A DNA stretch of 64,000 bases, from contig JALVJO010000057.1 in NCBI GenBank assembly GCA_027028245.1, positions 27,759 to 91,758 on the forward strand. The letters are read 5' to 3'. The position numbers and the translations under genes are program-made. Below the pieces are notes generated by a model that was given only the letters and a program-made list of their open reading frames with translations, was not told the DNA's origin and did no database searches. Shown here piece by piece: positions 996 to 62,268 of the stretch; position 1 is the first letter of the stretch; each line of letters opens with the position of its first letter. Source of the DNA: Deltaproteobacteria bacterium. Its GTDB lineage: Bacteria; Desulfobacterota; Dissulfuribacteria; Dissulfuribacterales; QOAL01.

Positions 996-1011
996 ACATG
1001 GAAAAGGCCAT

Positions 1012-13864: not shown

Positions 13865-13939
13865 GAAAGATTAACCTTTTGCTGATATGATGGAATTATT
13901 ATTTTGCTTCAAAATGGAAGAGCGTATGATGTCCTGAAG

Positions 13940-34340: not shown

Positions 34341-34369
34341 TTTTTATCTCAATGCTGCTGTAGCTAGAT

Positions 34370-35515: not shown

Positions 35516-35723
35516 TATCTTTTACCTTTTATAAAAAAATAAAAATAAGATTATAACTTGATCAAATCTTGAAAAATCGGTCAATTAAATGAAATAAAAA
35601 GATAAATTTTAATTTGCCAATATTAAAAAAGTGTTGTCTTTTAATCAACTTCAACTGCTGAGATCATTTTTTTATTTTTCAAAATCTTTTTAACAGGGAA
35701 AAGTCAAAAAAACATATCATAAA

Positions 35724-38222: not shown

Positions 38223-39596
38223 TCAGTTTTCGATGCCCAGGGCTTTTATCTTCCTGTGCAGGTGTCTTCTTTCAATCCCTATGGATTCAGCAGTCCTTTT
38301 GACGTTCCCCCCATGCTGCTGAAGTTTTTTTCTGATATATTCCTTTTCAAATATGGCTCGAGCCTTTTTGAAATCAGGACATTTAAAACATGAAATATCA
38401 AAGGCGGAATCTGCCATTTTATCACTGCTGTATTCCAGGCCTGAAGATAGATGATCCGGCAGGTCTTTTACAGTAATTGTATCTCCCCTTGACAGTATAA
38501 CTAGTCGTTCTATCAGATTCCTGAGTTCCCTGATATTCCCGGGCCAGTCATAACGCATCAGGGCGTTGACGGCATCTTCATGCATCTTGATCCTTCCCTT
38601 GGAAAATTCATGGAGAAATTCATCCACAAGTAGTGGGATGTCCTCCTTTCTTTCCCTGAGAGGTGGCACTTCGATTGGAATAACGTTCAGCCTGAAATAA
38701 AGGTCTTCCCTGAAGCGCCCTTTTTTTATCTCCTCTTCCAGGTCCTTGTTTGTGGCAGCTATTATGCGGACGTCAATGTTTATGGTCCTGCTTCCGCCGA
38801 CCCGTTCGAATTTCTGTTCCTGAAGGATCCGCAAGATCTTGGCCTGGGTTCTCAGAGTCATGTCTCCTATCTCGTCCAGGAATAGTGTCCCGCCGTTTGC
38901 CAGGTCAAACTTTCCCCTTTTCATGGTGTGAGCACCGGTAAAGGCACCCTTTTCGTGACCGAAAAGTTCGCTTTCAATGAGTTCTTCAGGGATAGCAGCA
39001 CAATTTATATCTATCAGGGGCTTATCTTTCCTCTTGCTGAATCTATGGATGGTTTGGGCGATGATCTCCTTTCCCGTGCCGTTTTCTCCCTGTATGAGAA
39101 CCCATGCATCAGTTGGTCCCACTATTCGTATCTGTTCCTTTAATTTTAATATCTTTTCGCTTATCCCGGTTATGTCCCGTACCTTACCGGTCTTTTCCTT
39201 TAAAAGGACATTTTCTTCCTGAAGAGCCTTGAACTTGAGGGCGTTTTCCACTGAAAGGAGAAGGGGATCTATGGAGAGGGGTTTTTCTATGAAGTCGAAT
39301 GCACCAAGTTTAGTAGCCTGGACAGCGGTTTCAATGGTTCCGTGACCAGACATGATTATGACCGGAATGAACGGCCACCTTTTTTTGACCTTTTCAAGGA
39401 CTTCTATTCCGTCCATGCCCGGCATCCAGATATCCAGGAGTATCAGGTCCGGCAGGGCCTGGGACTCTATTTTTTCCAGGCACATGGGTCCGTCTTCAGC
39501 CGTTATTACCTGGTATCCCTCGTCTGAAAGGATATCCGTTACGGATTCCAATATGAAATCCTCGTCGTCTACTACCATTATTCTTTTCTGTTCCAT
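38223..39596 (-). CDS. ntrX: Sigma-54-dependent response regulator (NtrX-like position, NtrC family)
   Basis: Receiver domain (IMVVDDEDF, LLDIWMPGMDG). AAA+ domain with GENGTGKE, GAFTGA and LFLDEIGD. C-terminal HTH. Directly downstream of the NtrY-like kinase gene. Confidence 0.85.
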   Translation of the reverse strand: MEQKRIMVVDDEDFILESVTDILSDEGYQVITAEDGPMCLEKIESQALPDLILLDIWMPGMDGIEVLEKVKKRWPFIPVIIMSGHGTIETAVQATKLGAFDFIEKPLSIDPLLLSVENALKFKALQEENVLLKEKTGKVRDITGISEKILKLKEQIRIVGPTDAWVLIQGENGTGKEIIAQTIHRFSKRKDKPLIDINCAAIPEELIESELFGHEKGAFTGAHTMKRGKFDLANGGTLFLDEIGDMTLRTQAKILRILQEQKFERVGGSRTINIDVRIIAATNKDLEEEIKKGRFREDLYFRLNVIPIEVPPLRERKEDIPLLVDEFLHEFSKGRIKMHEDAVNALMRYDWPGNIRELRNLIERLVILSRGDTITVKDLPDHLSSGLEYSSDKMADSAFDISCFKCPDFKKARAIFEKEYIRKKLQQHGGNVKRTAESIGIERRHLHRKIKALGIEN

Positions 39597-39611
39597 TCCA
39601 CCTTCTTTGAC

Positions 39612-41840
39612 TTATAGAATCCTGAATATTATTTTGAAAACAAGCCCTGTAGGCTTATTGAGTTCAGCTGTAACATCTGCGTCATGGGCCTCAAGAATTG
39701 ATTTTACTATTGCAAGTCCCAGACCTGTTCCGCCCTTTTTCTTTGAATAGTAGGGTTCAAATATCCTGGAAAGATCCCTTGAAATAATGCCTCTTCCGTT
39801 ATCTCTGATTTGGACTTCTATGCCTTTATCCTTGGGTCTATAGACAACCGAAATGTCTATTTGAGTAGCCTTTCCTGCTGAAATTGCATTGTCTATTATA
39901 TTTATAAACACACGCTTTATCTGTTCAGAATCTATCTTCATGGGGGGCAGATCTTTTGGAACATCTATCCGAACATTTACCATATCCTGGTAGAATGCTG
40001 CGGCTTCCATAATTACCTTCTCTAGGGAGGCGGTTCTGAGTACAGGGGCGGGCATCCTGGCGAACCTTGAAAATTCGTCCACCAATCTTTTAAGTTCATC
40101 GGCCTGGCTTATTATAGTCTGTGTACATCTTTCAAAGACTTCAAGGTCTTTTTCTGAAAACTTTCCCTGGAATTTTCTGTTGAGACGCTGTGCAGAAAGC
40201 TTTATTGGTGTAAGGGGATTTTTGACCTCGTGGGCAATTCTCCTTGCCACGTCTCGCCATGCTGCGATCCTCTGGACACGCTCCATATCTGTCAGATCGT
40301 CAAAGACTATCAGTATTCCGTAGACTCTGCCGTCATGATCCCTCAGCATGGAAAAATTCACCAGGAGGGATCTGGATTCTCCCTGAATCTCGATCTTGAT
40401 GGATCTCTTGATAGAGCCATGGTGCTGAGAAAGAAGTTCTTTTCTTATGTTTTCAAATTCTTGGAGTTCTTCATGCCCAAGAAGTTCGGTATATCTGGAT
40501 TTAAGCAGCGATTGGGCATCTTTTTGGAGTATTTCACAGGCCGATCTGTTAATAGTTGTGATATTTCCTTCTCTGTCCAGGCTTATAACACCTGCAGTGA
40601 TGTTTTCCAGGAGCATTTCGATATACGCCTTTCTGTGTTCAATTTCAGTAAAGCTCCTGAGAAGCTGGCGGGAAGCCTCTTCAGCCCTTCTCCTTGCCTC
40701 CTTCAGATCCAATGTCATGGTGTTGAATGCCCGGACAAGGCTGCTGAGTTCATCCCTTCCCCGTGGCTCCAGCCTGAAATCAAGGTCTCCCTGGGCGACC
40801 CTTTGGGTTGCCTCGGCAAGCATCTGTACTGGTTCTGTAATTCCCTTGGCAAGTTTGAAGGCAAACCATATGGACACGAATATAATGAGCAGGGTTATGA
40901 GAAAAAGGGTTGAGAGCAGGCTTGTCTTCAAGGGGTCCTGGAAGACTCTTAGGCGTTTGTATCCCTCGAAGCCCTGCCTTATGTCCTCCAGTTGGGAAAC
41001 TATGTCCTCTGATAGAAACCTGCCCACACTGAGATAGGCAAGTGGTCTTGAATTTTCATCCAAAATGGGCTGAACAACCCTTATTACGGTTCCGGTATTT
41101 GTGTCAAAATGAAGGACTACAGGCTCCCTGGCAAGTTTATTTCCTATCTCCTTTACGTCAACAGGCGGCAGATTTTCAGTAAGAGGCAGCCAAGCCCTTT
41201 TAAGCAGTATTCCGCCTTGGGGGTCCATTAGTTCCAGGGAATTTATTGCGTTATATCTTATTATCCTGGCAGGAAGGGTAGAGATGACGGCAGGAGCAGT
41301 TATATTTTCCACGCACTGCCTGTCTATTACGGGTTCCCTGTCGGAAATGCAGTGAAGCTTTATCTCGTCGGCCAGGATGTTTTCTATGTCCTTCAACTGT
41401 TTAACCTGGGACTGGTAATAGCTTCTTCCTACGGAAAGCGCCTGCTCAAGGCTGTATTCGATCCTGGTATCGAACCAGTAAGCCAGGCTCGTCTTAAGAA
41501 ACTGAAACGAAATAAAAAACAGCAGCAGTGTTGGAAGAAGGGAAATTATGATGAAGCCTATGGTCAATTTTGTCTTGAGTCTTGCCCCCAGAAGATGGAT
41601 ACGTTCCTCGAAGATGAGCTTTACAAGGTTTCGTATCACCAGGAAACTCAATACCAGGATGAGGAGTAGGTTGATGTTTATTATTACAAATACCAGTACG
41701 TTGGTATACTTAGGAAGGGGTTTTATGGTTGAAACCAGCCTGAATTCAATGACGGAAAAAATCACTAAGAGGAGGCCGGTAGCAATAATAAGGAGCCGTT
41801 CTCTGCCTTTTTTATGCTTAATATCGAAATTCAACTTCAT
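39612..41840 (-). CDS. ntrY: NtrY-like sensor histidine kinase (multi-TM, HAMP, PAS, HisKA, HATPase_c)
   Basis: N-terminal four TM helices, HAMP and PAS domains. H-box IAHEVKNPLTPIKLSAQRL matches the NtrY-type HE(I/V)KNPLTPI box. G boxes DNGRGI and GTGLGLAIV. The start MKLNFD (41840) is preferred. Confidence 0.85.
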   Translation of the reverse strand: MKLNFDIKHKKGRERLLIIATGLLLVIFSVIEFRLVSTIKPLPKYTNVLVFVIININLLLILVLSFLVIRNLVKLIFEERIHLLGARLKTKLTIGFIIISLLPTLLLFFISFQFLKTSLAYWFDTRIEYSLEQALSVGRSYYQSQVKQLKDIENILADEIKLHCISDREPVIDRQCVENITAPAVISTLPARIIRYNAINSLELMDPQGGILLKRAWLPLTENLPPVDVKEIGNKLAREPVVLHFDTNTGTVIRVVQPILDENSRPLAYLSVGRFLSEDIVSQLEDIRQGFEGYKRLRVFQDPLKTSLLSTLFLITLLIIFVSIWFAFKLAKGITEPVQMLAEATQRVAQGDLDFRLEPRGRDELSSLVRAFNTMTLDLKEARRRAEEASRQLLRSFTEIEHRKAYIEMLLENITAGVISLDREGNITTINRSACEILQKDAQSLLKSRYTELLGHEELQEFENIRKELLSQHHGSIKRSIKIEIQGESRSLLVNFSMLRDHDGRVYGILIVFDDLTDMERVQRIAAWRDVARRIAHEVKNPLTPIKLSAQRLNRKFQGKFSEKDLEVFERCTQTIISQADELKRLVDEFSRFARMPAPVLRTASLEKVIMEAAAFYQDMVNVRIDVPKDLPPMKIDSEQIKRVFINIIDNAISAGKATQIDISVVYRPKDKGIEVQIRDNGRGIISRDLSRIFEPYYSKKKGGTGLGLAIVKSILEAHDADVTAELNKPTGLVFKIIFRIL

Positions 41841-42429
41841 ATGGGTCAGTGGAAAAACCAAAGGAAGAAAACAACTTGACCAGGCGTCCGAAAGGCATGG
41901 AAGATTCGCCTTTTTTGGCACTGGCCTTTATTTCCAGAAAATATCTCTCTCCCTTTGACAACTTGTTCAAGGATATGATGGGCAAGTGTCTGATCCTGAA
42001 AAGATATCCCAAGGCCTCTTGAAGGCTGGATACTGTTACAATCCTGGTGGATGGGTAGTAAAAAGAAAGGACATATTCATCTCGGATGTTGTCAAGCACT
42101 ATGGTCCTGGCAAGTTCAAGGTGCTTCAATTCGTTGTCCCAAAGAAGCCTCTTTTTCTTGAGAGATATTTCAAACAGGTATTTTACAGGGATACCGCTTT
42201 GGAGGATTTTTTCTATCCTAGGGGTCAAGCCCCGCTCAAGCCTGAAACTGACACAAAGCCGGTCCTGGCAGCGGTTGAGCTGTATGTTTTTTATCTCTGG
42301 ACGGCCTTGGTCTTCGGCCGGGAAAACGGGTGGCTCAAAAATATAAAAAAAAAGAAGGCCATACAGGACGAAAAAGCAAACTTTTTTCAAAGCGGGCCCT
42401 TTTTCATTCCTGTATGTCCCATTAAACAT
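41818..42429 (-). CDS. DUF4390-like protein (periplasmic or membrane-anchored)
   Basis: 203 aa with an N-terminal hydrophobic anchor. It overlaps the ntrY-like start by 23 nt. From memory, a DUF4390 gene precedes ntrYX in beta-proteobacteria. Family assignment is by position and weak resemblance only. Confidence 0.55.
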   Translation of the reverse strand: MFNGTYRNEKGPALKKVCFFVLYGLLFFYIFEPPVFPAEDQGRPEIKNIQLNRCQDRLCVSFRLERGLTPRIEKILQSGIPVKYLFEISLKKKRLLWDNELKHLELARTIVLDNIRDEYVLSFYYPSTRIVTVSSLQEALGYLFRIRHLPIISLNKLSKGERYFLEIKASAKKGESSMPFGRLVKLFSSFGFSTDPYEVEFRY

Positions 42430-55024: not shown

Positions 55025-55166
55025 ATGTCAGCTTTCAGCTGTGGTCCTCCCTGGTCCCATGTTTTTGAAAATTCTGTCAATGGTCCCGGAATTTCAGAGC
55101 AAAAGGATTAGACGCCGTCAATTCTATCTGATAAAATTTTTTCATATGACCACAAGGAGATGAGCC

Positions 55167-56045
55167 ATGAAAGAACTAAAGAATTACCAGGGTGACGAAG
55201 GATTTCTGTTTGAAATTATAAATGCTGTTCCTTCGGGAATCTTCGTGACTGATCTCGACAACAACATCCTTATCATTAACAGGGCTGGGGCCGAGCTCGT
55301 GGGTAGAAGTCCCGGCGACTGCTTCGACAGGAAGTGCTACGAGGTCTTCAATACCCCTATGTGCCAGACCGACCAATGTACCTGCAGGGTGGCAACCAGC
55401 ACCAACTCGGTCAATCAGGGGCAGACTGCTCTGAAGGTGGGAGACAGGGACATCCCCATAGAATTTGCCAGCCGGCCGGTCAGGAATCACAAGGGTGAAA
55501 TAATCGGCTGCGTGGAGCATTTTATTGATATTTCTGAAAGGCTTGAACAGGAAAGGACTATCCTGAAACAGCAGGAAGAGATGCTCAAGAAGCGGGATGA
55601 AGATATCCGGCACCTGCAGGAAGAGATCCTGGAGCTTTCCACACCGGTAATAGAGGTGTGGGAAGGGGTCCTGGCACTGCCGCTGGTGGGCACGGTGGAC
55701 AGCCACAGGGCCCAGTCCGCCATGGAGCGGCTCCTTGTTACCATTGAGCAGACCCGCTCGCCCTTCGTAATAATAGACATAACAGGTGTGCCGAATGTGG
55801 ATACTGCAGTGGCAAACCATCTTCTCCAGACCGTTGATGCCGTTCGCCTCATGGGCGGGGAGGCCATACTTACAGGTATTTCCACCAGGATAGCCTTGAC
55901 CATGGCACATCTCGGCGTGGATCTGGGCACCATAAATGTGAAAAGCCGCATGGCAGACGGCCTACACTTTGCCATACAGAAGCTCATGGAGATGCACAGA
56001 CAGCAGCTTGCCAGCACCCGCTTCCTGAATAACCAAGGGGAATAG
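55167..56045 (+). CDS. rsbR: RsbR-like stressosome sensor protein (N-terminal Cys-rich PAS domain + C-terminal STAS)
   Basis: The STAS domain LSTPVIEVWEGVLALPLVGTVDSHRAQ...IDITGVPNVDTAVANHLLQ...LTGISTRIALTM retains Thr residues at positions equivalent to the phospho-sites of B. subtilis RsbRA (VDT, ALT). The N-terminal ~125 aa are PAS-like. Confidence 0.8.
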   Translation: MKELKNYQGDEGFLFEIINAVPSGIFVTDLDNNILIINRAGAELVGRSPGDCFDRKCYEVFNTPMCQTDQCTCRVATSTNSVNQGQTALKVGDRDIPIEFASRPVRNHKGEIIGCVEHFIDISERLEQERTILKQQEEMLKKRDEDIRHLQEEILELSTPVIEVWEGVLALPLVGTVDSHRAQSAMERLLVTIEQTRSPFVIIDITGVPNVDTAVANHLLQTVDAVRLMGGEAILTGISTRIALTMAHLGVDLGTINVKSRMADGLHFAIQKLMEMHRQQLASTRFLNNQGE

Positions 56046-56054
56046 AGGCCGTTT

Positions 56055-56420
56055 ATGGTCCCCTTTTCCATATTTTCCCTGGGAAATGTCCTGCTTGTTT
56101 CCCTGCAGGAAGAAATAGACGATTCCAGCGTGATCGCCCTTTCCAAGGCTCTCTCGGAAAAGGTCAAGAGGGGAAAGATCAATGGAGTAGTGATAGATCT
56201 CAGCAACGTGGAGGTAATAGATACATTTCTGGCCGAACATATATGCGGACTGGCTTCAGTGCTGGACCTGTTGAATACCAGGACGGTAATTTCCGGTCTT
56301 GGTGCCTCGGCAGTGGTGGCCCTTAAGAATTTCAACATTTCCTTTGATGAAAGTTTGTCCTTTGCCCTGGATTCACAGCAGGCACTTGAAAAAATCGAAA
56401 GCAGGCTCGCCTTACAGTGA
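56055..56420 (+). CDS. rsbS: RsbS-like single-STAS stressosome scaffold protein
   Basis: 121 aa. LGNVLLVSLQEEIDDSS...INGVVIDLSNVEVIDTF, with Thr in place of the phosphorylatable Ser of B. subtilis RsbS (MIDSF). Confidence 0.8.
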   Translation: MVPFSIFSLGNVLLVSLQEEIDDSSVIALSKALSEKVKRGKINGVVIDLSNVEVIDTFLAEHICGLASVLDLLNTRTVISGLGASAVVALKNFNISFDESLSFALDSQQALEKIESRLALQ

Positions 56421-56842
56421 CTGCACCAGAGAAGCCCCAGATAATTGAGAAAAGATGTGCTGTCGTCTCTAAAGAAAAAGATATCCCAAGTGCCAGGGCA
56501 CTGCTGAGGCAGATAATAGGTAGGACAGGGATCATTGACGAGGTTATTGAAGCCCAGCTTCTTACCATAATCGATGAGCTCGCCAAAAATATATTGAGGC
56601 ACGGCGGAGAAGGCAAGATTTGTGTCAAGGTCGTGCGCTCATCAGACCGCACAGGGTTTGGTATAAGTGCTGAGGACAGGGGCCGGGGAATTGCAGATCT
56701 CGATCTGGCCCTTGCTCCTGGCTATTCCGAGGACAGGGGAATGGGGATGGGTCTTAATCTATTGAAGGCGCTTTCTGACGATATGACAGTGGCAAATCTC
56801 CTTTCCGGCGGGGCCTTTATCGAGGTATGGAAATGGATCTGA
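56417..56842 (+). CDS. rsbT: RsbT-like serine/threonine kinase (GHKL, HATPase_c_2 type)
   Basis: 141 aa. N box ELAKNILRHG, G1 EDRGRGI, G2 GMGMGLN. The GTG start overlaps the rsbS stop (GTGA). Confidence 0.8.
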   Translation: MTAPEKPQIIEKRCAVVSKEKDIPSARALLRQIIGRTGIIDEVIEAQLLTIIDELAKNILRHGGEGKICVKVVRSSDRTGFGISAEDRGRGIADLDLALAPGYSEDRGMGMGLNLLKALSDDMTVANLLSGGAFIEVWKWI

Positions 56843-57915
56843 TTTCCCTGCAGCCGCACTGGCACGAAATGGATGTCAAAAGACAGGCCGATGTTGTCCT
56901 GGCCAGGGCATTTGCCTCTGATATTGCAGGAAGGCTTGGGTTTTCGCCGGGAAAAAAGGCAGACATAGTGCTGTCGGTCAGCGAGATGGCCCAGAACCAC
57001 ATAAAGCATAAGACAGTTTCCGGCCGCCTGCGTTTTTTCGGACAGCGCCTTCTGGACAGGTCTGTCATGAGCATTTCCAGCCTGGACATGGGGCCCGGGA
57101 TTACAAATATAAAAAAGGCCCTTGAGGACGGAATATCTTCTTCCAATGGTCTCGGCACGGGCCTCGGATGCATCAGGAGGATAGCAGATCGGTTTGCCAT
57201 CTGTTCCGGCAAGCTGGGGGTGTTTCCCTGTCCTGATCTTCTGAGCTTCGAACTGGAGTCCGTGACCCTTGTGACTGCTGAATTTTTTTTCCCTTCCGTA
57301 AAGAACCGAGAGTTTCCCCTGGATTTTTCCTATTTGATAAGGCCTGTTGACGGGGAAAAATACTGCGGTGATTTCTTTTTCTTCTGCTGCGAGAAGGAAA
57401 AGCAGGCCATGGTGGTTATGGATGCCCTGGGACATGGAAAAGAAGCTGCAGAAGCGGTTTCTGCTGCCATGGATTTCCTGAGGGCCGTACCGGCCAGCGC
57501 GGAACCTCTGGAAATGCTCATGGAGGCAGGCAGGGGGCTTGCCCATTCCCGCGGTGTTTCGGCCCAGGCGGTGAGGGTTGATACCTCAAAATGCGTAGTG
57601 GACACTGCAGCAGTCGGAAATGTCAATCAGTATCTTTACGTTGACGGCAGGCCTGTAAAGGTCAGCGGCCATCCCGGCATATTAGGCCCGGTCATTTCCA
57701 AATCCAGTATTTCAACTGAAAGATTTGAAAATTTTACCTCTGTCATGGGAATAATCCATACGGACGGACTTGGTTCTGTACCTCAGGTGAAGTTCGGGCA
57801 GACAGAACGATCCATGTCTGCACTGCTCTGGACCCATTACCTTTTTTCATGCTGCAATCAGGGCATGGTTTCCGGAGATGATGCAACACTGGTGGTCTGG
57901 AAATGTCGGGATTAG
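56827..57915 (+). CDS. RsbT/RsbW-like GHKL domain fused to a PP2C (SpoIIE-type) phosphatase (RsbX-position protein)
   Basis: N-terminal ~135 aa carry N box EMAQNHIKH, G1 LDMGPGI and G2 GLGTGLG. The C-terminal part has the PP2C pattern (CGDFFFF, VVMDALGHG, HTDGL, DDATLVVW). Overlaps rsbT by 16 nt. Confidence 0.8.
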   Translation: MEMDLISLQPHWHEMDVKRQADVVLARAFASDIAGRLGFSPGKKADIVLSVSEMAQNHIKHKTVSGRLRFFGQRLLDRSVMSISSLDMGPGITNIKKALEDGISSSNGLGTGLGCIRRIADRFAICSGKLGVFPCPDLLSFELESVTLVTAEFFFPSVKNREFPLDFSYLIRPVDGEKYCGDFFFFCCEKEKQAMVVMDALGHGKEAAEAVSAAMDFLRAVPASAEPLEMLMEAGRGLAHSRGVSAQAVRVDTSKCVVDTAAVGNVNQYLYVDGRPVKVSGHPGILGPVISKSSISTERFENFTSVMGIIHTDGLGSVPQVKFGQTERSMSALLWTHYLFSCCNQGMVSGDDATLVVWKCRD

Positions 57916-59216
57916 ACCATCATATTCACATAGTCACCCTGGTAATCAAGAAAGAAAGGGATATACCTCTGGTGCGCTCAAAGGCAAAAATTCTTGCAGA
58001 ACTATGCGGTTTTCCCAGGATCAAGAGGGTGAAAATTGCCCTGGCAGCATCCGAGCTGGCCCGGTTCCTTCTTCACCATACCAGGGGCGGAAAGGCTTCT
58101 TTTTTCATTGTATGCAAATTTGTGGCAGGGCAGCGGGGGCCCTCGGTCTCCGGTATGGAGCTCAACTTCCAGGGCAGGACCAGCTGCATAGTACCTGGAG
58201 AATCCCGTGCTCCGGAGAAGGCGGGAAGGATATATTCAGGTCTTTTCCGTTCCCTTGACACCGTAATGGACGAGCTGGATTTTCAAAGATGCATTCCGGG
58301 CAGATCCATGCGTGCCAGGGCAGTGATGTGGGGCGGGAAAGAGAGCTGCGAACAGCTCCAGAAAAAATACGAGGAGATTAAAAAGCAACTTTTTTCCGAC
58401 CTGGAGGAATCGTTTCTTGAAAATTTAAGGGCCAAGCATGAGGAAGTTCTGGAGCTGCTGCGCACCCTTTCAAAGAAGAACATGGAGCTTGACAAGGCAA
58501 ATAGCGAGCTCCTGGAGCTGAGCCAGGACATGGAATCCCTGGTTCATGAAAGGACAGTGGTGGAGCTGGCCCTGAGAATAGCGGACAAGATAAGAAACCC
58601 GGCAACTGTTATCGGGGGGCTTGCGAGAATCGTTTTGAAAAAGATTTCCTCTGATTTCCCGGAACGTGCCAAGATAGAGGCCATCTTCAGAGAGGCCAAT
58701 AAGCTCGAGGAAATAGTAAAGGACTTTGAGGGCCTGGCCAGGGAACAGGAGAGATTCTTTGTTGAAATGGATCTCAGGGAGCTGGTGGAAGAGATACTGG
58801 AGGCCTGGCATCCCCACCTGGAACAGAAAAACCTCAAGCTTGTGACCAGTATTGCAGAAATGCCTCTTAAAATCCATGCCGATCCCAGGATACTCAAAGT
58901 CGCAATAATCCACGTGCTGAAAAATGCAGTGGACGCCTCACCCCACGGAGCTGCCCTTGAAATAGAGGTAAGCCGGATAAACGGCAGGCCGGTGCTGTCC
59001 ATAAGGGATTACGGCCCTGGCATCCCGCCTGAAATCCAGAAAAAACTCTTCAAGGAACTTGTTACAACCAAGCCTTCGGGCACCGGGGTCGGCCTTATCA
59101 TGGTTCACCATATAATGAAGGAGCACCAGGGAGAGATTGAAATAGAAGGAAGGCCGGGCCTTGGTACAACAGTGAAACTAGTCTTTCCGGAAAGATGGAA
59201 GGAAAAGCCCTCCTGA
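57903..59216 (+). CDS. Histidine-kinase-like protein lacking the H-box histidine (degenerate RsbT-like N-domain, coiled coil, DHp-like helix, intact HATPase_c)
   Basis: The C-terminal CA domain is intact (N box HVLKNAVDAS, G1 RDYGPGI, F box LFKELVTTK, G2 GTGVGLIMV). The DHp region reads ELALRIADKIRNPATVIGG, where the canonical sequence is xxxxxxSHE(I/L)RNPL. The N-terminal ~130 aa align in pattern with RsbT but lack the N-box Asn and G1. Confidence 0.8.
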   Translation: MSGLDHHIHIVTLVIKKERDIPLVRSKAKILAELCGFPRIKRVKIALAASELARFLLHHTRGGKASFFIVCKFVAGQRGPSVSGMELNFQGRTSCIVPGESRAPEKAGRIYSGLFRSLDTVMDELDFQRCIPGRSMRARAVMWGGKESCEQLQKKYEEIKKQLFSDLEESFLENLRAKHEEVLELLRTLSKKNMELDKANSELLELSQDMESLVHERTVVELALRIADKIRNPATVIGGLARIVLKKISSDFPERAKIEAIFREANKLEEIVKDFEGLAREQERFFVEMDLRELVEEILEAWHPHLEQKNLKLVTSIAEMPLKIHADPRILKVAIIHVLKNAVDASPHGAALEIEVSRINGRPVLSIRDYGPGIPPEIQKKLFKELVTTKPSGTGVGLIMVHHIMKEHQGEIEIEGRPGLGTTVKLVFPERWKEKPS

Positions 59217-61693
59217 AAAGGTTCTTCCTCGCATTAACGGCCTGTCTGCTGCTGGCACTGTCTCTTTTCTGGTTTCTTCTGGTAAAGGGTCCGGGGTTTC
59301 CGGTTAGTTTGGCCTGGGGCGACAAAAAACTTGAAATTTCCAAGATTTCCTCTTCAGCACCGCGGAGCCTGCATCTGTCCGGCATAGAATTTTCCACAAA
59401 AGGATTGAAGGTCAGGGTTTTGGGAATAGGTCTTATCCTGGATTATGCACCCCCTTTTTTCAGCCGGATTGTTGTGGAAAGGCCCGAGGTGGAGATACAA
59501 GCCGAAAAAGGAAAGCCTGGCAGATCCCTTCACATTTCAAGGAGAAAGTACCGGCTCCTTCGGCTGGTGCAGATAAAGAAGGGAAAAATTGACTATGTTT
59601 CTCCTGATATCAGTATCCGGGTAAAGGATGTTGATTTCAAGCCGGATTTAAAGGAGACAGGGCAGAAAACAACAAATCTGTCCTTGTTTTCGGCATCTTA
59701 TGAGCTTGATCGTTCTGCCCTGCACCTTCAGGGAAGTTTGGATGGGAGGCTTGATTTTTCCACCTTCAAGGCAGGGCTTAAATCCCTTTCAGCAGTCAGG
59801 GCGCCAGGTCTTTCCAGTCAGGTGCCCGTCCGATTAAGTCTGGATTTTTCTCTCCCTGAAGAACTTGATTCTGCCAAGGGGGCATTTTCCGTGGAGATTT
59901 CCCATATGCAGATGGTACCTGCCCTGAAAAAGACCGGCATTACAGGGCGCTTTTTCCTGGATGGCATGCTGGCCTTTTCCAGGGATAAGGGCCTGAAGGC
60001 CCGGGGAAGGGTCAGTCTTCCCCTGGATGAAATGGCTGCTGAAGCCGGCTTACCCGTGCGGCTTGGGGCATTCCAGCTTTACAGCCTGGAAAGTCCAAGG
60101 GATCTGTCCAGGATAAGTCTTGCCCTCCAGCCGGAAAAGGAGAGGGACACCAAAACCAGGGTCAGACTGGACTACGAGATGGAGACAGGTTCCTGGGTCG
60201 TGGATTCGGATATACAGATTCAGGGGCTTTCTGGCTCCAAGGATGCGGACCACGCCTTTGAGGACTTGGATCTCAGGCTGAAGTTTAAGCTCAAGGGACA
60301 GGGACGAAAGGCTTCCTGGACAGCAGCTGCGTCCTGGGACAAGGGACAGGTCCTGATGTATCCTTGGTTTTTTGACCTTTCAGAGCTGAAGGGTTCAGTT
60401 ACTGCAGGCGGCACCCTGAATAAAAAAGGGGTTCTGGTATCAAGGGCGAAAATGGAAGGTCCCTTTTTGCTTGATGCAAAAGATGTCTATATTTCCCTGA
60501 AAGATGACAAAAATGAAGGTATTGGCAGTCTTTTGAAAAATATCAGGATAGGACGCCTGGATCTTTCCGGGAGCCTTGAAAGGCTTTATCCGGTTTTCCT
60601 GAGGGATCCTTTCGGTGATTCCCATCCAGTGTTGAAAAAAATCGACCCTTCAGGCTCCTTCAAGGCCTCTACTGATGGCAGGGTGGTGGAGCTGGGATGC
60701 ATGGCCGACATCCGTTATTCGGGTTCAGACCTTTTCAACGGACTTTTTTTCGATTTCCACTGGCCTTTCAGGGACGAAAAATGCCGGAATGGTGGTCTTT
60801 CCTGGAGAGATTTTTATCTGCAGAACCTCCTTCCAGCGTCCTTGCTGGACCGTTCTGTCAAGGTGTGTTTAAGGCAAAACCGCATCCCCATGACCATATG
60901 CAGAAAAAGCATTTCAGCCGGCCCTGTGGCCTTGGACCTGCAAAACGGGGAAATATCCGTTAAGAAGGCAGCCTTTGACATGTCCACCAAAAATCTATTT
61001 CTGGAAGGGATAAGCCTGGAGGATCTTCAGATAAAAAGGCTCGTTGCTGGTTTCCCCTATGAAATGAGGGTTTCTGCAAGGGACATGTCTGCCAGGCTCC
61101 AGGGGCAGAGGCTCGTCTTTTCTGGGAAGATAAGGGCCGAGGTGGCAGGCGGCATCATAGAAGCATCGGGAATTTGGATTGAACCCTTTGCTCCCATCGT
61201 GCATTACGGAGCTGATATCGTGTTCAAGGATCTGGATCTCAAAATGCTTACCGCTCCCACATCCTTCGGTGTGGTATCCGGGGTCGTTAGAGGGCATATA
61301 AAGGGCCTGGTCATGAGCGGCATCCAGCCCGAGCGCTTTGATTTTAGACTGGAGAGCGACGAATCTGCCAAGACTCCCAAAAAGATCAGCATCAGGGCAG
61401 TGGAAAATCTTTCCATCCTCGGCGGTGGAGAGGGTTCTGTCTCCTTCCTGGGATATTTTTTCAAGGAGTTTTCATACAAGCGTATCGGTATATCATGCAG
61501 CCTGAACAATGATCTATTCGTGCTGCACGGGCTTATCAAAAAGGGCGGCAGGGAATATCTGGTGGAAAGGGGGTTTTTCGGGGGTGTCAATGTGATCAAT
61601 ATGAATCCAGGGGGTAGGATACGATTCAAGGATATGGTAGAACGACTGAAAAGGATAACAGAAACAGATAATTCCAAAATGGAGGTCCGTTAA
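59195..61693 (+). CDS. ydbH: YdbH-like AsmA-family envelope protein (N-terminal TM anchor, long beta-rich body)
   Basis: 832 aa. TM anchor FFLALTACLLLALSLFWFLLV. The C-terminal region (GGIIEASGIWIEPFAP...FKDLDLKMLT...GVVSGVVRGHIKGL...) resembles the YdbH/TamB-type C-terminus. A DUF1318/YdbL-like gene follows, as in E. coli ydbH-ynbE-ydbL. Confidence 0.65.
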   Translation: MEGKALLKRFFLALTACLLLALSLFWFLLVKGPGFPVSLAWGDKKLEISKISSSAPRSLHLSGIEFSTKGLKVRVLGIGLILDYAPPFFSRIVVERPEVEIQAEKGKPGRSLHISRRKYRLLRLVQIKKGKIDYVSPDISIRVKDVDFKPDLKETGQKTTNLSLFSASYELDRSALHLQGSLDGRLDFSTFKAGLKSLSAVRAPGLSSQVPVRLSLDFSLPEELDSAKGAFSVEISHMQMVPALKKTGITGRFFLDGMLAFSRDKGLKARGRVSLPLDEMAAEAGLPVRLGAFQLYSLESPRDLSRISLALQPEKERDTKTRVRLDYEMETGSWVVDSDIQIQGLSGSKDADHAFEDLDLRLKFKLKGQGRKASWTAAASWDKGQVLMYPWFFDLSELKGSVTAGGTLNKKGVLVSRAKMEGPFLLDAKDVYISLKDDKNEGIGSLLKNIRIGRLDLSGSLERLYPVFLRDPFGDSHPVLKKIDPSGSFKASTDGRVVELGCMADIRYSGSDLFNGLFFDFHWPFRDEKCRNGGLSWRDFYLQNLLPASLLDRSVKVCLRQNRIPMTICRKSISAGPVALDLQNGEISVKKAAFDMSTKNLFLEGISLEDLQIKRLVAGFPYEMRVSARDMSARLQGQRLVFSGKIRAEVAGGIIEASGIWIEPFAPIVHYGADIVFKDLDLKMLTAPTSFGVVSGVVRGHIKGLVMSGIQPERFDFRLESDESAKTPKKISIRAVENLSILGGGEGSVSFLGYFFKEFSYKRIGISCSLNNDLFVLHGLIKKGGREYLVERGFFGGVNVINMNPGGRIRFKDMVERLKRITETDNSKMEVR

Positions 61694-61695
61694 AC

Positions 61696-62268
61696 ATGAA
61701 GCATATGAGCCTGAAAACCATTGTGGCATTGACGGTTTTTCTTATAACTGCATGCGTAACTGTTAACATATATTTCCCCGCTGCAGAGGTGAAGCAGGCT
61801 GCAGAAGACATAGCAAAAGACATAAGGGGGCAGCAGTCTGACCTGAAGGAGGACGACAGCAAGGAAAAGATACCCACGTCCTGGTTTCATTTTGGAAGCC
61901 AGGCATTTGCAGCCAATGAACTCACAGTATCCAATGCCACTATAAGGCAGCTGAAGGCAAGGATGAAAAGCCGCTATCCTTCTCTGATCCCCTTTATGAA
62001 GGCGGGAAACGTGGGCGAGGCAGCCAACGGCCTGCTGGTGATAAAGAGCCAGGCAGGTCTCGGACTCAAACAAAAGGCGGATCTTAAACGCCTGGTAAGT
62101 GCCGAGAATTCAGATCGCATGGCCCTTTACAGGGCAGTGGCCCAGAGCCTGAACATCCCTGGGTCTCAGCTTTCCAGGGTTCAGAAGATATTTGCATCCG
62201 AATGGCAGAAAACAGCACCCAGGGGAACATATATTGAAAAGGCACCTGGCAAGTGGGTCAGGAAGTAG
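61696..62268 (+). CDS. ydbL: YdbL-like (DUF1318) periplasmic lipoprotein, possibly with a YnbE-like N-terminal segment
   Basis: Lipobox LITAC. DUF1318-type core VGEAANGLLVIK...LVSAENSDRMALYRAVAQ and C-terminal PGKWVRK. Confidence 0.7.
   Translation: MKHMSLKTIVALTVFLITACVTVNIYFPAAEVKQAAEDIAKDIRGQQSDLKEDDSKEKIPTSWFHFGSQAFAANELTVSNATIRQLKARMKSRYPSLIPFMKAGNVGEAANGLLVIKSQAGLGLKQKADLKRLVSAENSDRMALYRAVAQSLNIPGSQLSRVQKIFASEWQKTAPRGTYIEKAPGKWVRK

What the first reader, a model, noticed from the sequence alone, without database searches (positions are those of the whole stretch)
55167..59216. Stressosome-type RsbR-RsbS-RsbT module wired to non-canonical outputs in an anaerobe-type genome
Five genes with short gaps or overlaps (9-nt gap, then 4-, 16- and 13-nt overlaps) encode:
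- PAS-STAS (RsbR-like, with Thr at both RsbRA-equivalent phospho-sites)
- a single STAS protein (RsbS-like, with Thr at the phospho-site)
- an RsbT-like GHKL kinase
- a GHKL::PP2C fusion
- a kinase-like protein with a degenerate GHKL N-domain, a coiled coil, a His-less DHp and an intact CA domain

Stressosomes are experimentally described for Bacillus, Listeria, Vibrio and Moorella. Comparative genomics has noted RsbRST modules linked to different outputs (sigma-B cascades, two-component systems, c-di-GMP enzymes). No RsbU/V/W, sigma factor, response regulator or GGDEF gene follows here. The operon instead runs directly into envelope genes (ydbH/ydbL-like). So the output logic of this module is not explained by the described paradigms.
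Basis: partly seen in the sequence, partly recalled or inferred. Interest (0 to 1): 0.7.

Follow-up and report, generated by a model that had tools for sequence, protein, structure and literature searches.

The report
Stressosome operon ending in Asp-type pseudo-histidine-kinase
A five-gene stress-sensing "stressosome" operon of an anaerobic sulfate-reducer lineage ends in a conserved kinase-like output protein. That protein carries a dead copy of the stressosome kinase at one end and an aspartate where every normal histidine kinase has its phospho-accepting histidine, which suggests a new way of wiring stressosomes to two-component-like signalling.

Summary
Five translationally coupled genes (55167-59216, + strand) encode:
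- RsbR: a Cys-rich PAS domain plus STAS
- RsbS
- an intact RsbT kinase
- an RsbX-type PP2C phosphatase fused to a second intact RsbT-like kinase domain
- "K", a 437-aa histidine-kinase-like protein

K's N-terminal domain is a catalytically dead RsbT/SpoIIAB-fold domain. An 80-residue helix joins it to a DHp whose phospho-acceptor His is Asp228, followed by an ATP-competent CA domain.

The unit is conserved in Thermodesulfobacteriota. Among 63 distinct full-length K homologues, 62 carry Asp. Architectures are R-S-T-X-K (24), R-S-X-K (30) and R-S-K (4).

K is therefore the dedicated output. This is a variant of the known "RsbRSTX plus two-component" design, not an output-less module.

The downstream envelope genes follow K in only about 20 of 63 loci. 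The YdbL-like call is confirmed; the YdbH-like call is not supported by sequence.

K's DHp-CA core belongs to a near-monophyletic Asp-for-His clade (Asp followed by Arg or Lys). That clade also occurs behind REC, PAS, NIT-HAMP and other sensor domains. I found no description of it.

How K signals is inferred, not shown. The leading idea is docking of its dead RsbT-like domain on the STAS core, followed by action without a phospho-His on an unlinked partner.

The parts
55109..55137 (+). Sigma-70-like promoter match (TAGACG-17-TAAAAT with extended -10 TG), 30 nt upstream of rsbR. Weak evidence only.
   Evidence: 9 sites found against 6.2 +/- 2.8 expected, so not above chance. An AAGGAG ribosome-binding site lies 8 nt before the ATG.
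55167..56045 (+). RsbR-like co-antagonist, 292 aa. N-terminal PAS domain (aa 14-125), helical linker, C-terminal STAS domain (aa 160-252). Phospho-site equivalents are Ser179 and Thr213.
   Evidence: Pfam PAS_4 1.4e-14 and STAS 3.3e-15. Best PDB matches are Listeria, Bacillus-type and Vibrio RsbR at E 1e-27. Site mapping comes from the Listeria alignment, including its T175A mutant entry.
55320..55385 (+). Cys cluster in the PAS domain (C52, C57, E59, C66, C71, C73). Predicted ligands of a redox-sensitive Fe-S cluster.
   Evidence: The motif C-x4-C-x8/9-C-x4-C-x-C is present in 59 of 59 R orthologues. C57-x-E-x6-C66-x4-C71 resembles the D. vulgaris OrpR PAS domain (C52, D/E54, C61, C65; [4Fe-4S]; PMC8359166). 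Cofactor binding is an inference.
56055..56420 (+). RsbS-like single-STAS antagonist, 121 aa. Thr57 sits at the RsbS S59 (Listeria S56) position.
   Evidence: Pfam STAS 3.4e-10. PDB RsbS hits at 1.6e-15 and 4.5e-15, with the alignment showing IDT against IDS.
56417..56842 (+). RsbT-like GHKL Ser/Thr kinase, 141 aa, GTG start. ATP-binding motifs intact: N-box ELAKN, G1 DRGRG, G2 GMGMG.
   Evidence: Pfam HATPase_c_2 5e-09. Motifs. 23 of 25 orthologues keep both the N-box and G1.
56827..57915 (+). RsbX-type feedback phosphatase fused to a second RsbT-like kinase domain, 362 aa. GHKL domain aa 1-135, motifs intact (EMAQN, DMGPG, GLGTGLG). PP2C domain aa 169-362 (CGD, DALGHG, HTDG, GDDA).
   Evidence: Pfam HATPase_c_2 6e-07 and SpoIIE 6e-05. 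Best PDB matches are B. subtilis RsbX 3w40 at 1.3e-08 and Moorella MtX 3zt9 at 7e-06. T against X-N hhalign 99.1%. Motifs.
57903..58352 (+). K, N-terminal domain (aa 1-150): a catalytically dead RsbT/SpoIIAB-fold domain. It keeps S50-E51-x-x-R54 and Arg25 on helix 1. The N-box Asn position is Phe55 and there is no G1 motif. Proposed STAS-docking domain.
   Evidence: hhalign to T 96.9% and to X-N 96.3%. AF2 pLDDT 86, pTM 0.82. Foldseek top 17 hits are SpoIIAB, UsfX and RsbW at E 4e-05 to 3e-03. Residue counts.
58404..58751 (+). K, continuous signalling helix (aa 168-247) running into the DHp hairpin (alpha-2 is aa 255-283). This is the most conserved part of the protein.
   Evidence: AF2 secondary structure. 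Invariant columns in a 39-sequence alignment.
58584..58586 (+). Codon GAC for Asp228, at the position of the phospho-acceptor His. It is followed by Lys229 in place of the catalytic Glu. Asn232 (His+4) is retained.
   Evidence: Alignments to ThkA and KinB. Asp is invariant in 39 of 39 aligned sequences and in 62 of 63 locus homologues. Codon checked.
58761..59192 (+). K, CA (HATPase_c) domain with intact N (N341), G1 (D369, G371, G373) and G2 (G393, G395, G397) boxes.
   Evidence: Pfam HATPase_c 5e-21. PDB ThkA, KinB and ZraS hits. Foldseek ZraS 2e-15. Conservation.
59195..61693 (+). 832-aa protein with an N-terminal membrane anchor and no recognised family. A neighbour and possibly co-transcribed cargo, not part of the conserved core.
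   Evidence: 22-nt overlap with K. No Pfam or NCBIfam hit. No significant similarity to E. coli YdbH. Follows K in about 20 of 63 loci.
61696..62268 (+). 190-aa predicted lipoprotein (lipobox ITAC) with a C-terminal DUF1318/YdbL domain. A neighbour, not core.
   Evidence: Pfam DUF1318 2.4e-16. hhalign to E. coli YdbL 96.4%, E 1e-09, and none to YnbE.

Best explanation
This is a redox-sensing, stressosome-type partner-switching operon of Thermodesulfobacteriota. Its dedicated output is an Asp-type pseudo-histidine-kinase.

**Core.** RsbR and RsbS form the STAS core. RsbR's PAS domain probably holds an Fe-S cluster.

**Kinase and phosphatase.** RsbT is an active GHKL kinase that phosphorylates Ser179 and Thr213 of RsbR and Thr57 of RsbS. 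X combines a second active RsbT-like kinase domain with an RsbX-type PP2C. The PP2C resets the core, and the kinase domain probably tethers X to it. In the many relatives that lack T, X's kinase domain probably supplies the kinase activity.

**Output.** K is a dimeric DHp-CA protein. Its N-terminal domain is a dead paralogue of RsbT, which I propose docks on the STAS core as RsbT does. Sensor state and STAS phosphorylation would change that docking. The change would pass down the 80-residue helix to the DHp-CA.

**How K acts.** K cannot make the canonical phospho-His, because His and Glu are replaced by Asp228 and Lys229. It would therefore act on an unlinked partner through its highly conserved DHp surface. 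The most likely partner is the receiver domain of an NtrC-type response regulator or another kinase. The action would be ATP-modulated binding, sequestration or dephosphorylation (Asn232 at His+4 is kept).

**Shown:** gene content, homologies, motif states, conservation and co-variation.

**Inferred:** complex formation, Fe-S binding, docking of K, and the nature and target of K's output.
For: **Module identity.** Domain and PDB matches place R, S, T and X in the RsbR, RsbS, RsbT and RsbX families.

**Three paralogous RsbT-like domains.** They are mutually homologous. ATP motifs are kept in T and X-N but lost in K-N. K-N has the fold of STAS-binding anti-sigma kinases that were solved in complex with STAS partners. 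The helix-1 Arg is shared by T, X-N, K-N and B. subtilis RsbT.

**K is the constant partner of R-S.** Architectures are R-S-T-X-K in 24 loci, R-S-X-K in 30 and R-S-K in 4. K is always last, and 62 of 63 homologues have Asp.

**Co-variation.** Loci with T keep Thr213 in R and intact CA motifs in K. Loci without T have Ala or Ser at that site and mostly degenerate CA motifs, yet keep the dead N-domain, the helix and the AD-x-[IV]-RNP motif.

**A canonical sibling.** L095 has R-S-T-X(GHKL-PP2C) followed by GHKL-HisKA(His)-CA-REC and REC-HK-REC. An RsbT-like domain fused to a kinase core is therefore a recurrent stressosome output.

**K's DHp-CA is closest to NtrB, AtoS and ZraS-type kinases**.

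**Redox input.** The Cys motif is invariant and OrpR-like.

**The literature leaves the link open.** How stressosomes lacking RsbU_N targets reach downstream kinases is unresolved, and no VvRsbT-VvD1 interaction was detected (PMC9237108).
Against: - No experiment or complex prediction supports K docking on STAS. The dead domain could instead pair with T or X-N.
- No response regulator or kinase partner is identified, and none is conserved next to the module.
- ATP-binding motifs are kept in this window's K and in about 86% of Asp-type relatives. That fits a catalytic role better than a pure scaffold.
- In one genome (L024) K sits with the two envelope genes but without R-S-T-X upstream.
- Formation of a large icosahedral stressosome is untested.
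Confidence: 0.5

Rival explanations
1. K is a working enzyme with different chemistry. Its CA domain would phosphorylate Asp228, giving an acyl-phosphate stabilised by the adjacent Lys or Arg, or would phosphorylate Ser/Thr on another protein such as the STAS domains. The stressosome would regulate that activity. This is partly compatible with the docking model.
For: - Asp followed by Arg or Lys is a coupled, clade-wide substitution. The His+1 position is never Glu or Asp in 71 Asp-type proteins, against Glu or Asp in 60 of 68 His-type.
- ATP motifs are kept in about 86% of Asp-type proteins and in all 24 R-S-T-X-K loci.
- The Asp-type core sits behind ordinary sensor domains exactly as active transmitters do.
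- R-S-K loci have phosphorylatable STAS residues but no T or X.
Against: - About 30 R-S-X-K loci have lost the N-box Asn, G1 and G2 in K's CA but keep the Asp-DHp, so catalysis is dispensable there.
- I know of no precedent for Asp autophosphorylation on a DHp.
- The CA domain lies about 80 helical residues from the N-domain in the model, which makes cis phosphorylation of a docked STAS unlikely.
Confidence: 0.2
2. The known logic is kept. Released RsbT, or X's kinase domain, binds K's dead RsbT-like domain as a GHKL heterodimer, or phosphorylates K. K's N-domain would then play the role that RsbU_N plays in Bacillus.
For: - Anti-sigma-type GHKL kinases are dimers in solved structures (hits).
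- T, X-N and K-N are paralogues.
- Heinz et al. proposed RsbT-dependent phosphorylation of downstream kinases that lack RsbU_N (PMC9237108).
Against: - Four R-S-K loci have neither T nor X, and 30 lack T.
- K-N keeps the residues it shares with STAS-binding RsbT (Arg25, SE..R).
Confidence: 0.15
3. The functional output is the envelope pair downstream. The module and K are co-transcribed with a large membrane-anchored protein and a YdbL-like lipoprotein, and they control or accompany them. On this reading the system serves envelope homeostasis rather than a regulator cascade.
For: - A 22-nt overlap between K and the next gene, with no convincing terminator.
- The pair follows K in about 20 of 63 loci, across K identities of 47-100%.
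- In L024, K stays with the pair although R-S-T-X is absent upstream.
Against: - The pair is absent from about two thirds of loci, including many R-S-T-X-K ones, where neighbours are ParAB, peptidase U32, enolase and others.
- YdbH homology is not supported by sequence.
- Co-transcription is not a signalling mechanism.
Confidence: 0.1
4. It is not a true stressosome. It would be a small partner-switching set (STAS proteins, a kinase and a phosphatase) without a large icosahedral assembly, and K would be a decaying kinase remnant.
For: Complex size cannot be tested here. K's N-domain and, in many relatives, its CA domain are degenerate.
Against: - R and S are far closer to solved RsbR and RsbS than to SpoIIAA or RsbV, which were not detected at E<0.01.
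- Asp228 and dozens of other columns are invariant over 35-100% identity, and the gene is retained in every architecture. That is purifying selection, not decay.
Confidence: 0.05

Closest known systems
Vibrio vulnificus stressosome locus: rsbR-rsbS-rsbT-rsbX plus VvD1/VvD2 (Heinz et al. 2022, PMC9237108; Cutugno et al. 2023, PMC10014275)
   Same: A four-gene RSTX module is followed directly by a two-component-type kinase protein. There is no RsbU, RsbV, RsbW or SigB, and no RsbU_N domain on the downstream kinase. RsbR has Ser at the first phospho-site and Thr at the second.
   Different: - The sensor there is a haem globin; here it is a Cys-rich PAS domain.
- RsbX there is described as single-domain; here it is fused to an intact GHKL domain.
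- VvD1 is described as a sensor kinase paired with a response regulator, VvD2. Here the kinase-like protein has Asp for His, a dead RsbT-like N-domain and no linked regulator.
Moorella thermoacetica MtR-MtS-MtT-MtX-MtG (Quin et al. 2012, as cited in PMC12143880 and PMC4976288)
   Same: A stressosome in an anaerobe wired to a non-sigma output. X's PP2C half matches MtX (3zt9) and S matches MtS (2vy9).
   Different: The output there is a GGDEF cyclase carrying an RsbU_N domain that RsbT binds (PMC12143880). Here there is no RsbU_N and no GGDEF.
Bacillus and Listeria stressosome: RsbRST to RsbU to RsbV/W to SigB
   Same: Homologous RsbR and RsbS STAS domains, phospho-sites, RsbT and an RsbX-type phosphatase.
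   Different: No RsbU, RsbV, RsbW or SigB. Here the element that leaves or binds the core is proposed to be part of the output protein itself.
Caulobacter DivL, a pseudo-histidine-kinase (PMC4211667; PDB 4q20)
   Same: A DHp-CA protein that lacks the phospho-acceptor His yet is conserved and functional. It uses its kinase core to read a response regulator and control another kinase. It is a structural hit for K.
   Different: DivL has Tyr, not Asp, and PAS inputs, and it belongs to a different lineage. Whether K binds a response regulator is untested.
L095-type loci: R-S-T-X(GHKL-PP2C)-[HATPase_c_2-HisKA-HATPase_c-REC]-[REC-HK-REC] (metagenomic)
   Same: The same gene order, the same GHKL-PP2C fusion, and a kinase-type output with an N-terminal RsbT-like domain.
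   Different: There the N-domain keeps its ATP motifs, the H-box is canonical (SHEFRTPL), REC domains are fused, and a second hybrid kinase follows. That is an ordinary phosphorelay.
Rec-controlled histidine kinases such as Leptospira LvrB (PMC13269768; PDB 8vc9)
   Same: The REC-DHp-CA architecture, downstream of a hybrid kinase, is shared by the REC-type members of the Asp clade (L011).
   Different: LvrB is described as a histidine kinase. The REC-type relatives of K have AD[KR]xRNP in 117 of the 120 sequences checked.

Membership tests
Stressosome (RsbR-RsbS-RsbT-RsbX module) | RsbR-type protein: variable N-terminal sensor plus a C-terminal STAS closest to RsbR | tested here: met
   PAS plus STAS. 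Best PDB hits are Listeria and Vibrio RsbR at E 1e-27.
Stressosome (RsbR-RsbS-RsbT-RsbX module) | Phosphorylatable residues at the RsbRA T171 and T205 positions and the RsbS S59 position | tested here: met
   R Ser179 and Thr213, S Thr57, by alignment to Listeria RsbR (T175, T209) and RsbS (S56).
Stressosome (RsbR-RsbS-RsbT-RsbX module) | Single-domain STAS protein RsbS encoded next to RsbR | tested here: met
   121 aa. RsbS hits at 1.6e-15. SpoIIAA and RsbV not detected at E<0.01.
Stressosome (RsbR-RsbS-RsbT-RsbX module) | RsbT-type GHKL Ser/Thr kinase with intact ATP-binding motifs, third in the operon | tested here: met
   HATPase_c_2. N, G1 and G2 present. hhalign to B. subtilis RsbT 99.7%, sequence recalled from memory.
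Stressosome (RsbR-RsbS-RsbT-RsbX module) | RsbX-type PP2C feedback phosphatase | tested here: met
   Best PDB hits are RsbX 3w40 and MtX 3zt9. PP2C metal-binding motifs present. It carries an extra N-terminal GHKL domain.
Stressosome (RsbR-RsbS-RsbT-RsbX module) | Assembly of R and S into a pseudo-icosahedral complex of about 1.8 MDa that sequesters RsbT | not testable with these tools
   Needs co-expression with SEC or cryo-EM.
Stressosome with an RsbU_N-type output (Bacillus RsbU, Moorella MtG, proteobacterial RsbU_N kinases) | Downstream effector carries an RsbU_N domain that RsbT binds | tested here: not met
   No RsbU_N hit in any of the five proteins. K's N-domain is a GHKL fold.
Two-component sensor histidine kinase (HisKA class) | DHp plus CA fold with ATP-binding N, G1 and G2 boxes | tested here: met
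   PDB ThkA, KinB and ZraS. AF2 and Foldseek. Motifs.
Two-component sensor histidine kinase (HisKA class) | Phospho-acceptor His in the H-box, with an acidic residue at His+1 | tested here: not met
   Asp228-Lys229. Asp is invariant in 39 of 39 and 62 of 63 homologues. His+1 is never acidic in the Asp clade.
Two-component sensor histidine kinase (HisKA class) | Cognate response regulator (usually adjacent) | tested here: not met
   None adjacent in the window or, as a rule, in 63 related loci. An unlinked partner cannot be excluded.
Anti-sigma-type GHKL Ser kinases (RsbT, RsbW, SpoIIAB): K's N-domain | Bergerat-fold domain homologous to RsbT and SpoIIAB | tested here: met
   hhalign 96.9-97%. 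Foldseek top 17 hits.
Anti-sigma-type GHKL Ser kinases (RsbT, RsbW, SpoIIAB): K's N-domain | Catalytic N-box Asn and the G1 DxGxG motif | tested here: not met
   Position 55 is Phe, Tyr, Leu or Trp in 34 of 39 and Asn in 1 of 39. No G1 in 64 of 64.
YdbH-YnbE-YdbL envelope system | YdbL (DUF1318) homologue | tested here: met
   Pfam 2.4e-16. hhalign to E. coli YdbL 96.4%.
YdbH-YnbE-YdbL envelope system | YdbH (AsmA-like) and YnbE homologues | tested here: not met
   No Pfam hit even at E<=10. BLASTP and hhalign to E. coli YdbH not significant. No YnbE match. Only size, membrane anchor and gene order resemble YdbH. A fold comparison was not possible.

The most novel reading that the evidence does not exclude
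K's transmitter belongs to a large, near-monophyletic and apparently undescribed clade of histidine-kinase-like proteins. In this clade the phospho-acceptor His-Glu pair is replaced by Asp-Arg/Lys while the ATP-binding domain is usually kept. The clade is wired to many sensor types: a dead RsbT-like domain, REC, PAS, NIT-HAMP, Tll0287, and even the C-terminus of canonical hybrid kinases.

The boldest reading is that this clade uses a distinct signalling chemistry. Candidates are an aspartyl-phosphate on the DHp, or ATP-gated capture of receiver domains. On that reading the stressosome plugs directly into it through a built-in dead RsbT domain. That would amount to a new branch of two-component-like signalling and a new stressosome output principle.
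Probability: 0.2. Interest if true: 0.85.

Novelty: new variant of a known kind. Interest (0 to 1): 0.62.

Why it matters
Stressosomes are widespread, but outside the Bacillales it is unclear how they reach their outputs. Heinz et al. (2022) state that most downstream proteins lack the RsbT-binding RsbU_N domain, and they could not detect a VvRsbT-VvD1 interaction. This module offers a concrete, testable alternative: the output protein carries its own inactivated copy of RsbT.

It also exposes a sizeable clade of kinase-like transmitters with an invariant Asp in place of the phospho-accepting His. At least 67 clusters at 50% identity fall among the top 150 profile hits. If that clade is catalytically active, the textbook His-to-Asp scheme has an unrecognised sibling. 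If it is not, it is a large family of DivL-like pseudo-kinases.

The natural series of loci, R-S-T-X-K to R-S-X-K to R-S-K, comes with co-varying phospho-sites and ATP motifs. It works as a ready-made deletion experiment for dissecting which steps need phosphorylation.

Finally, an OrpR-like Cys cluster in RsbR would make this the first predicted Fe-S (redox) stressosome, in strict anaerobes.

Tried and rejected
- **YdbH-likeness of the 832-aa protein.** No Pfam or NCBIfam hit, even at E<=10. BLASTP and profile-sequence hhalign to E. coli YdbH were not significant, and there was no YnbE match. I kept only "YdbL-like neighbour".
- **PDB sequence search with T.** It found nothing at E<0.01. T was placed by profile comparison instead.
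- **His179 as an alternative phospho-acceptor.** It is invariant in NLRAKHEE, but I rejected it. It lies 49 residues upstream of Asp228 on one continuous helix in the model, and it falls outside the core shared with the REC-type Asp proteins.
- **K as a decayed pseudogene.** Rejected because of invariant columns and universal retention.
- **Promoter and terminator scans.** They gave nothing above the shuffled expectation.
- **Searching for a conserved adjacent response regulator.**
  - NtrC-type regulator plus PilS-like kinase pairs lie upstream of R in only about 5 loci.
  - A PAS-kinase with a true His follows K in 9 Desulfobulbaceae loci.
  - Neither arrangement is general.
- **Literature searches** for an Asp-for-His bacterial kinase clade, or for RsbT-like domains fused to kinases, found nothing relevant. 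Pané-Farré 2005 and Quin 2012 are not held in the library, so prior mention there cannot be excluded.
- **Naming the source organism** by cluster look-up gave no name. The nearest named relatives are uncultured Thermodesulfatator MAGs at 88% identity.

Full report
**1. Observation**

The six-frame ORF list shows seven + strand genes packed head to tail:

| Gene | Coordinates | Length | Junction with previous gene |
|---|---|---|---|
| R | 55167-56045 | 292 aa | - |
| S | 56055-56420 | 121 aa | 9-nt gap |
| T | 56417-56842 | 141 aa (GTG start) | 4-nt overlap |
| X | 56827-57915 | 362 aa | 16-nt overlap |
| K | 57903-59216 | 437 aa | 13-nt overlap |
| 832-aa protein | 59195-61693 | 832 aa | 22-nt overlap |
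| 190-aa protein | 61696-62268 | 190 aa | 2-nt gap |

**2. Identity of R, S, T and X**

- R's STAS half matches solved RsbR chains of Listeria and Vibrio at E about 1e-27. S matches RsbS at 1.6e-15. SpoIIAA and RsbV do not appear at E<0.01.
- Residue-level alignment to Listeria RsbR and RsbS, whose PDB entries include the T175A and S56A mutants, maps the phospho-sites. R Ser179 corresponds to RsbRA T171. R Thr213 corresponds to T205. S Thr57 corresponds to RsbS S59.
- T keeps the N-box (ELAKN), G1 (DRGRG) and G2 (GMGMG) motifs. Its family profile aligns end to end with B. subtilis RsbT at 99.7% probability, E 1e-26 and 34% identity.
- X's C-terminal half matches B. subtilis RsbX (3w40) and Moorella MtX (3zt9) best and keeps the PP2C metal-binding motifs. 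Its N-terminal 135 residues are a second RsbT-like domain (T against X-N: 99.1%) with all ATP motifs intact.

**3. The fifth protein, K**

- Alignment to ThkA and KinB shows the H-box RIADKIRNPATVIGG where those kinases have RVAHEIRNP and SISHEIRNP. His becomes Asp228 and the catalytic Glu becomes Lys229. Asn232 (His+4) and the N, G1 and G2 boxes of the CA domain are present.
- The N-terminal 150 residues are homologous to T (hhalign 96.9%, E 2e-10, 124 columns) and to X-N (96.3%).
- An AlphaFold model of this domain (pLDDT 86, pTM 0.82) retrieves SpoIIAB, M. tuberculosis UsfX and B. subtilis RsbW as its top 17 Foldseek hits (E 4e-05 to 3e-03). Most of those structures were solved bound to STAS partners.
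- The domain keeps S50-E51-x-x-R54 (RsbT has SELARN) and Arg25 on helix 1. The Mg-ligand Asn position is Phe, Tyr, Leu or Trp in 34 of 39 homologues (Asn in only 1), and G1 is absent.
- The full-length model (pLDDT 78.6) shows one continuous helix from residue 168 to 247 running into the DHp, then alpha-2 and the CA domain. Its structural neighbours are ZraS, LvrB, DivL, CckA, RetS and HK853.

**4. Conservation**

- A protein search found about 47 full-length homologues at 35-100% identity. In a 39-sequence alignment Asp228 is invariant, as are Arg231, Asn232 and Pro233 and many positions of the long helix.
- Gene neighbourhoods and a scan of one genome per species gave 63 distinct full-length K homologues. 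All come from Thermodesulfobacteriota MAGs: Thermodesulfatator, Desulfobulbaceae, Dissulfuribacterales, Desulfurivibrio and others. Of these, 62 carry Asp.
- The single His-Glu member (L071) has no R or S on its short contig.
- Architectures: R-S-T-X-K in 24 loci (including this window), R-S-X-K in 30, R-S-K in 4. The rest are contig-truncated, except L024, where K stands without R-S-T-X. K is always the last gene of the unit.

**5. Co-variation**

- All 24 R-S-T-X-K loci have Thr at the T205-equivalent site of R. In K they have intact CA motifs, and T and X-N have intact GHKL motifs in nearly all of them.
- The T-less loci have Ala or Ser at that R site and Ser in S. X-N is still intact in most. 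In most, K's CA domain has lost the N-box Asn, G1 and G2.
- Despite that loss, the T-less loci keep the dead N-domain, the helix and the AD-x-[IV]-RNP motif.
- The universally conserved parts of K are thus its RsbT-like domain, the helix and the Asp-DHp. The RsbT kinase, full RsbR phosphorylation and K's ATP binding travel together.

**6. Relatives that set the context**

- (a) L095 has R-S-T-X(GHKL-PP2C) followed by a 701-aa HATPase_c_2-HisKA-HATPase_c-REC protein and a REC-HK-REC protein. That 701-aa protein has an intact N-terminal GHKL domain and a canonical SHEFRTPL H-box. An RsbT-like domain fused to a kinase core is therefore a recurrent stressosome output, and this window holds a derived, His-less form of it.
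- (b) GHKL-PP2C fusions also occur in other R-S contexts, for example GGDEF-X-R-S in L096.
- (c) The Asp-type DHp-CA is not confined to stressosomes.
  - 117 of the 120 homologues of a REC-DHp-CA protein that were checked have AD[KR]xRNP. They come from Nitrospirota, Thermodesulfovibrionales and Dissulfurispiraceae.
  - One sits 4 nt downstream of a hybrid kinase (L011).
  - An exhaustive profile search plus Pfam scans found the Asp-type core behind PAS, NIT-HAMP-PAS, Tll0287-like, periplasmic-binding-protein-like and REC-PAS inputs. It also sits at the C-terminus of complete hybrid kinases (dCache-HAMP-PAS-HisKA-CA-REC-REC-[Asp DHp-CA]).
  - In a neighbour-joining tree of 141 DHp-CA cores, 67 of 71 Asp-type sequences form one pure clade.
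  - Their His+1 residue is Arg (36), Lys (19), Gln (7) and so on, never Glu or Asp. In the 68 His-type sequences it is Glu or Asp in 60.
  - ATP-binding motifs persist in about 86% of Asp-type members.

**7. Input**

R's PAS domain carries C52, C57, E59, C66, C71 and C73. The pattern is present in 59 of 59 orthologues. [quoted passage not shown] A PAS-kinase with a true His (THDLKAPV) follows K in nine Desulfobulbaceae loci and has the exact OrpR spacing. A redox or O2 input is thus a reasonable inference for these strict anaerobes. The window also encodes cytochrome c3.

**8. Downstream genes**

The 190-aa lipoprotein is YdbL-like in its C-terminal half. The 832-aa protein has no detectable family and no significant similarity to E. 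coli YdbH or YnbE. The pair follows K in about 20 of 63 loci. Elsewhere K is followed by ParAB, peptidase U32, DJC28_CD (an unrelated domain family) or a PAS-kinase. It is not part of the conserved core. However, the overlap with K, the lack of a terminator and the K-plus-pair arrangement in L024 keep a co-expression link alive.

**9. Mechanism (inference)**

The simplest reading has four steps:
1. R and S build the STAS core, and R senses redox state.
2. T, or X's kinase domain where T is absent, phosphorylates the core, and X's PP2C resets it.
3. K docks on the core through its dead RsbT-like domain and is switched by sensor and phosphorylation state.
4. The signal passes through the long helix to the Asp-DHp/CA. 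This unit cannot form the canonical phospho-His, so it acts on an unlinked partner by binding, sequestration or dephosphorylation.

K's DHp-CA is closest to NtrB, AtoS and ZraS-type kinases, and three NtrC-type regulators lie in this window alone. That makes an NtrC-type receiver a plausible but untested target. The rivals are given separately: Asp or Ser/Thr kinase chemistry, T binding to K's N-domain, an envelope output, and no true stressosome.

**10. Comparison with the literature**

The RSTX module with variable downstream modules, including two-component kinases, is established (PMC9237108; PMC10014275). Outputs with RsbU_N domains on PP2C, GGDEF or kinase effectors are the understood case (PMC12143880). 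For the majority without RsbU_N the link is acknowledged as unknown, and no VvRsbT-VvD1 interaction was found. DivL is the precedent for a conserved His-less kinase that reads a response regulator (PMC4211667). I found no paper describing an Asp-for-His bacterial kinase clade or an RsbT-like domain fused to a kinase core. The two key comparative papers, Pané-Farré 2005 and Quin 2012, are not in the library.

**11. Verdict**

The interpretation needs re-centring. The module is not output-less. Its output is the fifth gene, a new variant of the two-component-type stressosome output. The wider Asp-type transmitter clade is the most interesting lead.

Noticed in passing
window 55320-55385 and 55506-55523 (R PAS domain): A Cys cluster (C52, C57, C66, C71, C73, plus C115 in GCVEHF) is invariant in 59 of 59 RsbR orthologues. 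Its spacing and acidic residue resemble the [4Fe-4S]-binding PAS domain of D. vulgaris OrpR.
   Followed up: partly
L011 5848-9116; proteins P0052-P0060 and P0121-P0236: A large family of REC-DHp-CA proteins, mostly from Nitrospirota and Thermodesulfovibrionales, also has Asp at the H-box (117 of 120 sequences checked). One is encoded 4 nt after a GAF-PAS hybrid kinase and next to a REC-less sigma-54 activator.
   Followed up: partly
proteins P0278 (1399 aa) and P0280 (924 aa): Complete canonical hybrid kinases (sensor-HisKA-CA-REC-REC) carry an additional Asp-type DHp-CA at their C-terminus. One polypeptide therefore holds both a His-type and an Asp-type transmitter.
   Followed up: no
L053 4414-5469, L056 9283-10371, L061 9300-10397, L089 8560-9615 and five more Desulfobulbaceae loci: A roughly 355-aa PAS-kinase with a true His (THDLKAPV) and an OrpR-spaced Cys motif (C-x-E-x6-C-x3-C) directly follows K in R-S-X-K loci. 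It is a candidate partner kinase for K in that lineage.
   Followed up: partly
L096 5051-8315: A different arrangement: GGDEF, then GHKL-PP2C, then a 299-aa STAS protein (RsbR-like), then a 117-aa protein with no Pfam hit in the RsbS position. There is no separate RsbT, so the kinase-phosphatase fusion may act as a bifunctional enzyme there.
   Followed up: no
L024 7965-11630: K plus the 832-aa-type and YdbL-like genes occur without R-S-T-X upstream, where divergently transcribed genes lie instead. This is the only case seen of K separated from the STAS genes.
   Followed up: partly
L071 6316-7569: The only full-length K homologue with a canonical His-Glu H-box (ALKVAHEIRNP). It also has a degenerate N-domain, and no R or S lies on its 7.7-kb contig. 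It may be an ancestral or reverted form.
   Followed up: no
window 61696-61970 (N-terminal half of the 190-aa lipoprotein): About 90 residues between the lipobox Cys and the DUF1318 domain have no detectable family and do not match E. coli YnbE. The preceding 832-aa protein is also family-less.
   Followed up: partly
window 120-2334, 12416-15445 and 38223-41921: Three NtrC-type (REC, sigma-54 AAA+, HTH_8) response regulators lie in the 64-kb window. Two have a full-length histidine kinase beside them, and the third has a kinase-like ORF (120-995). In about 5 related loci a PilS-like kinase plus NtrC-type regulator pair sits directly upstream of rsbR.
   Followed up: partly
window 34001-36000: G+C drops to 0.366 against about 0.50 elsewhere in the window. 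This was not examined.
   Followed up: no
window 55487-56602 (- strand): A 371-aa antisense ORF spans R, S and T. It is a mechanical ORF opposite well-supported genes and is presumably not coding.
   Followed up: no
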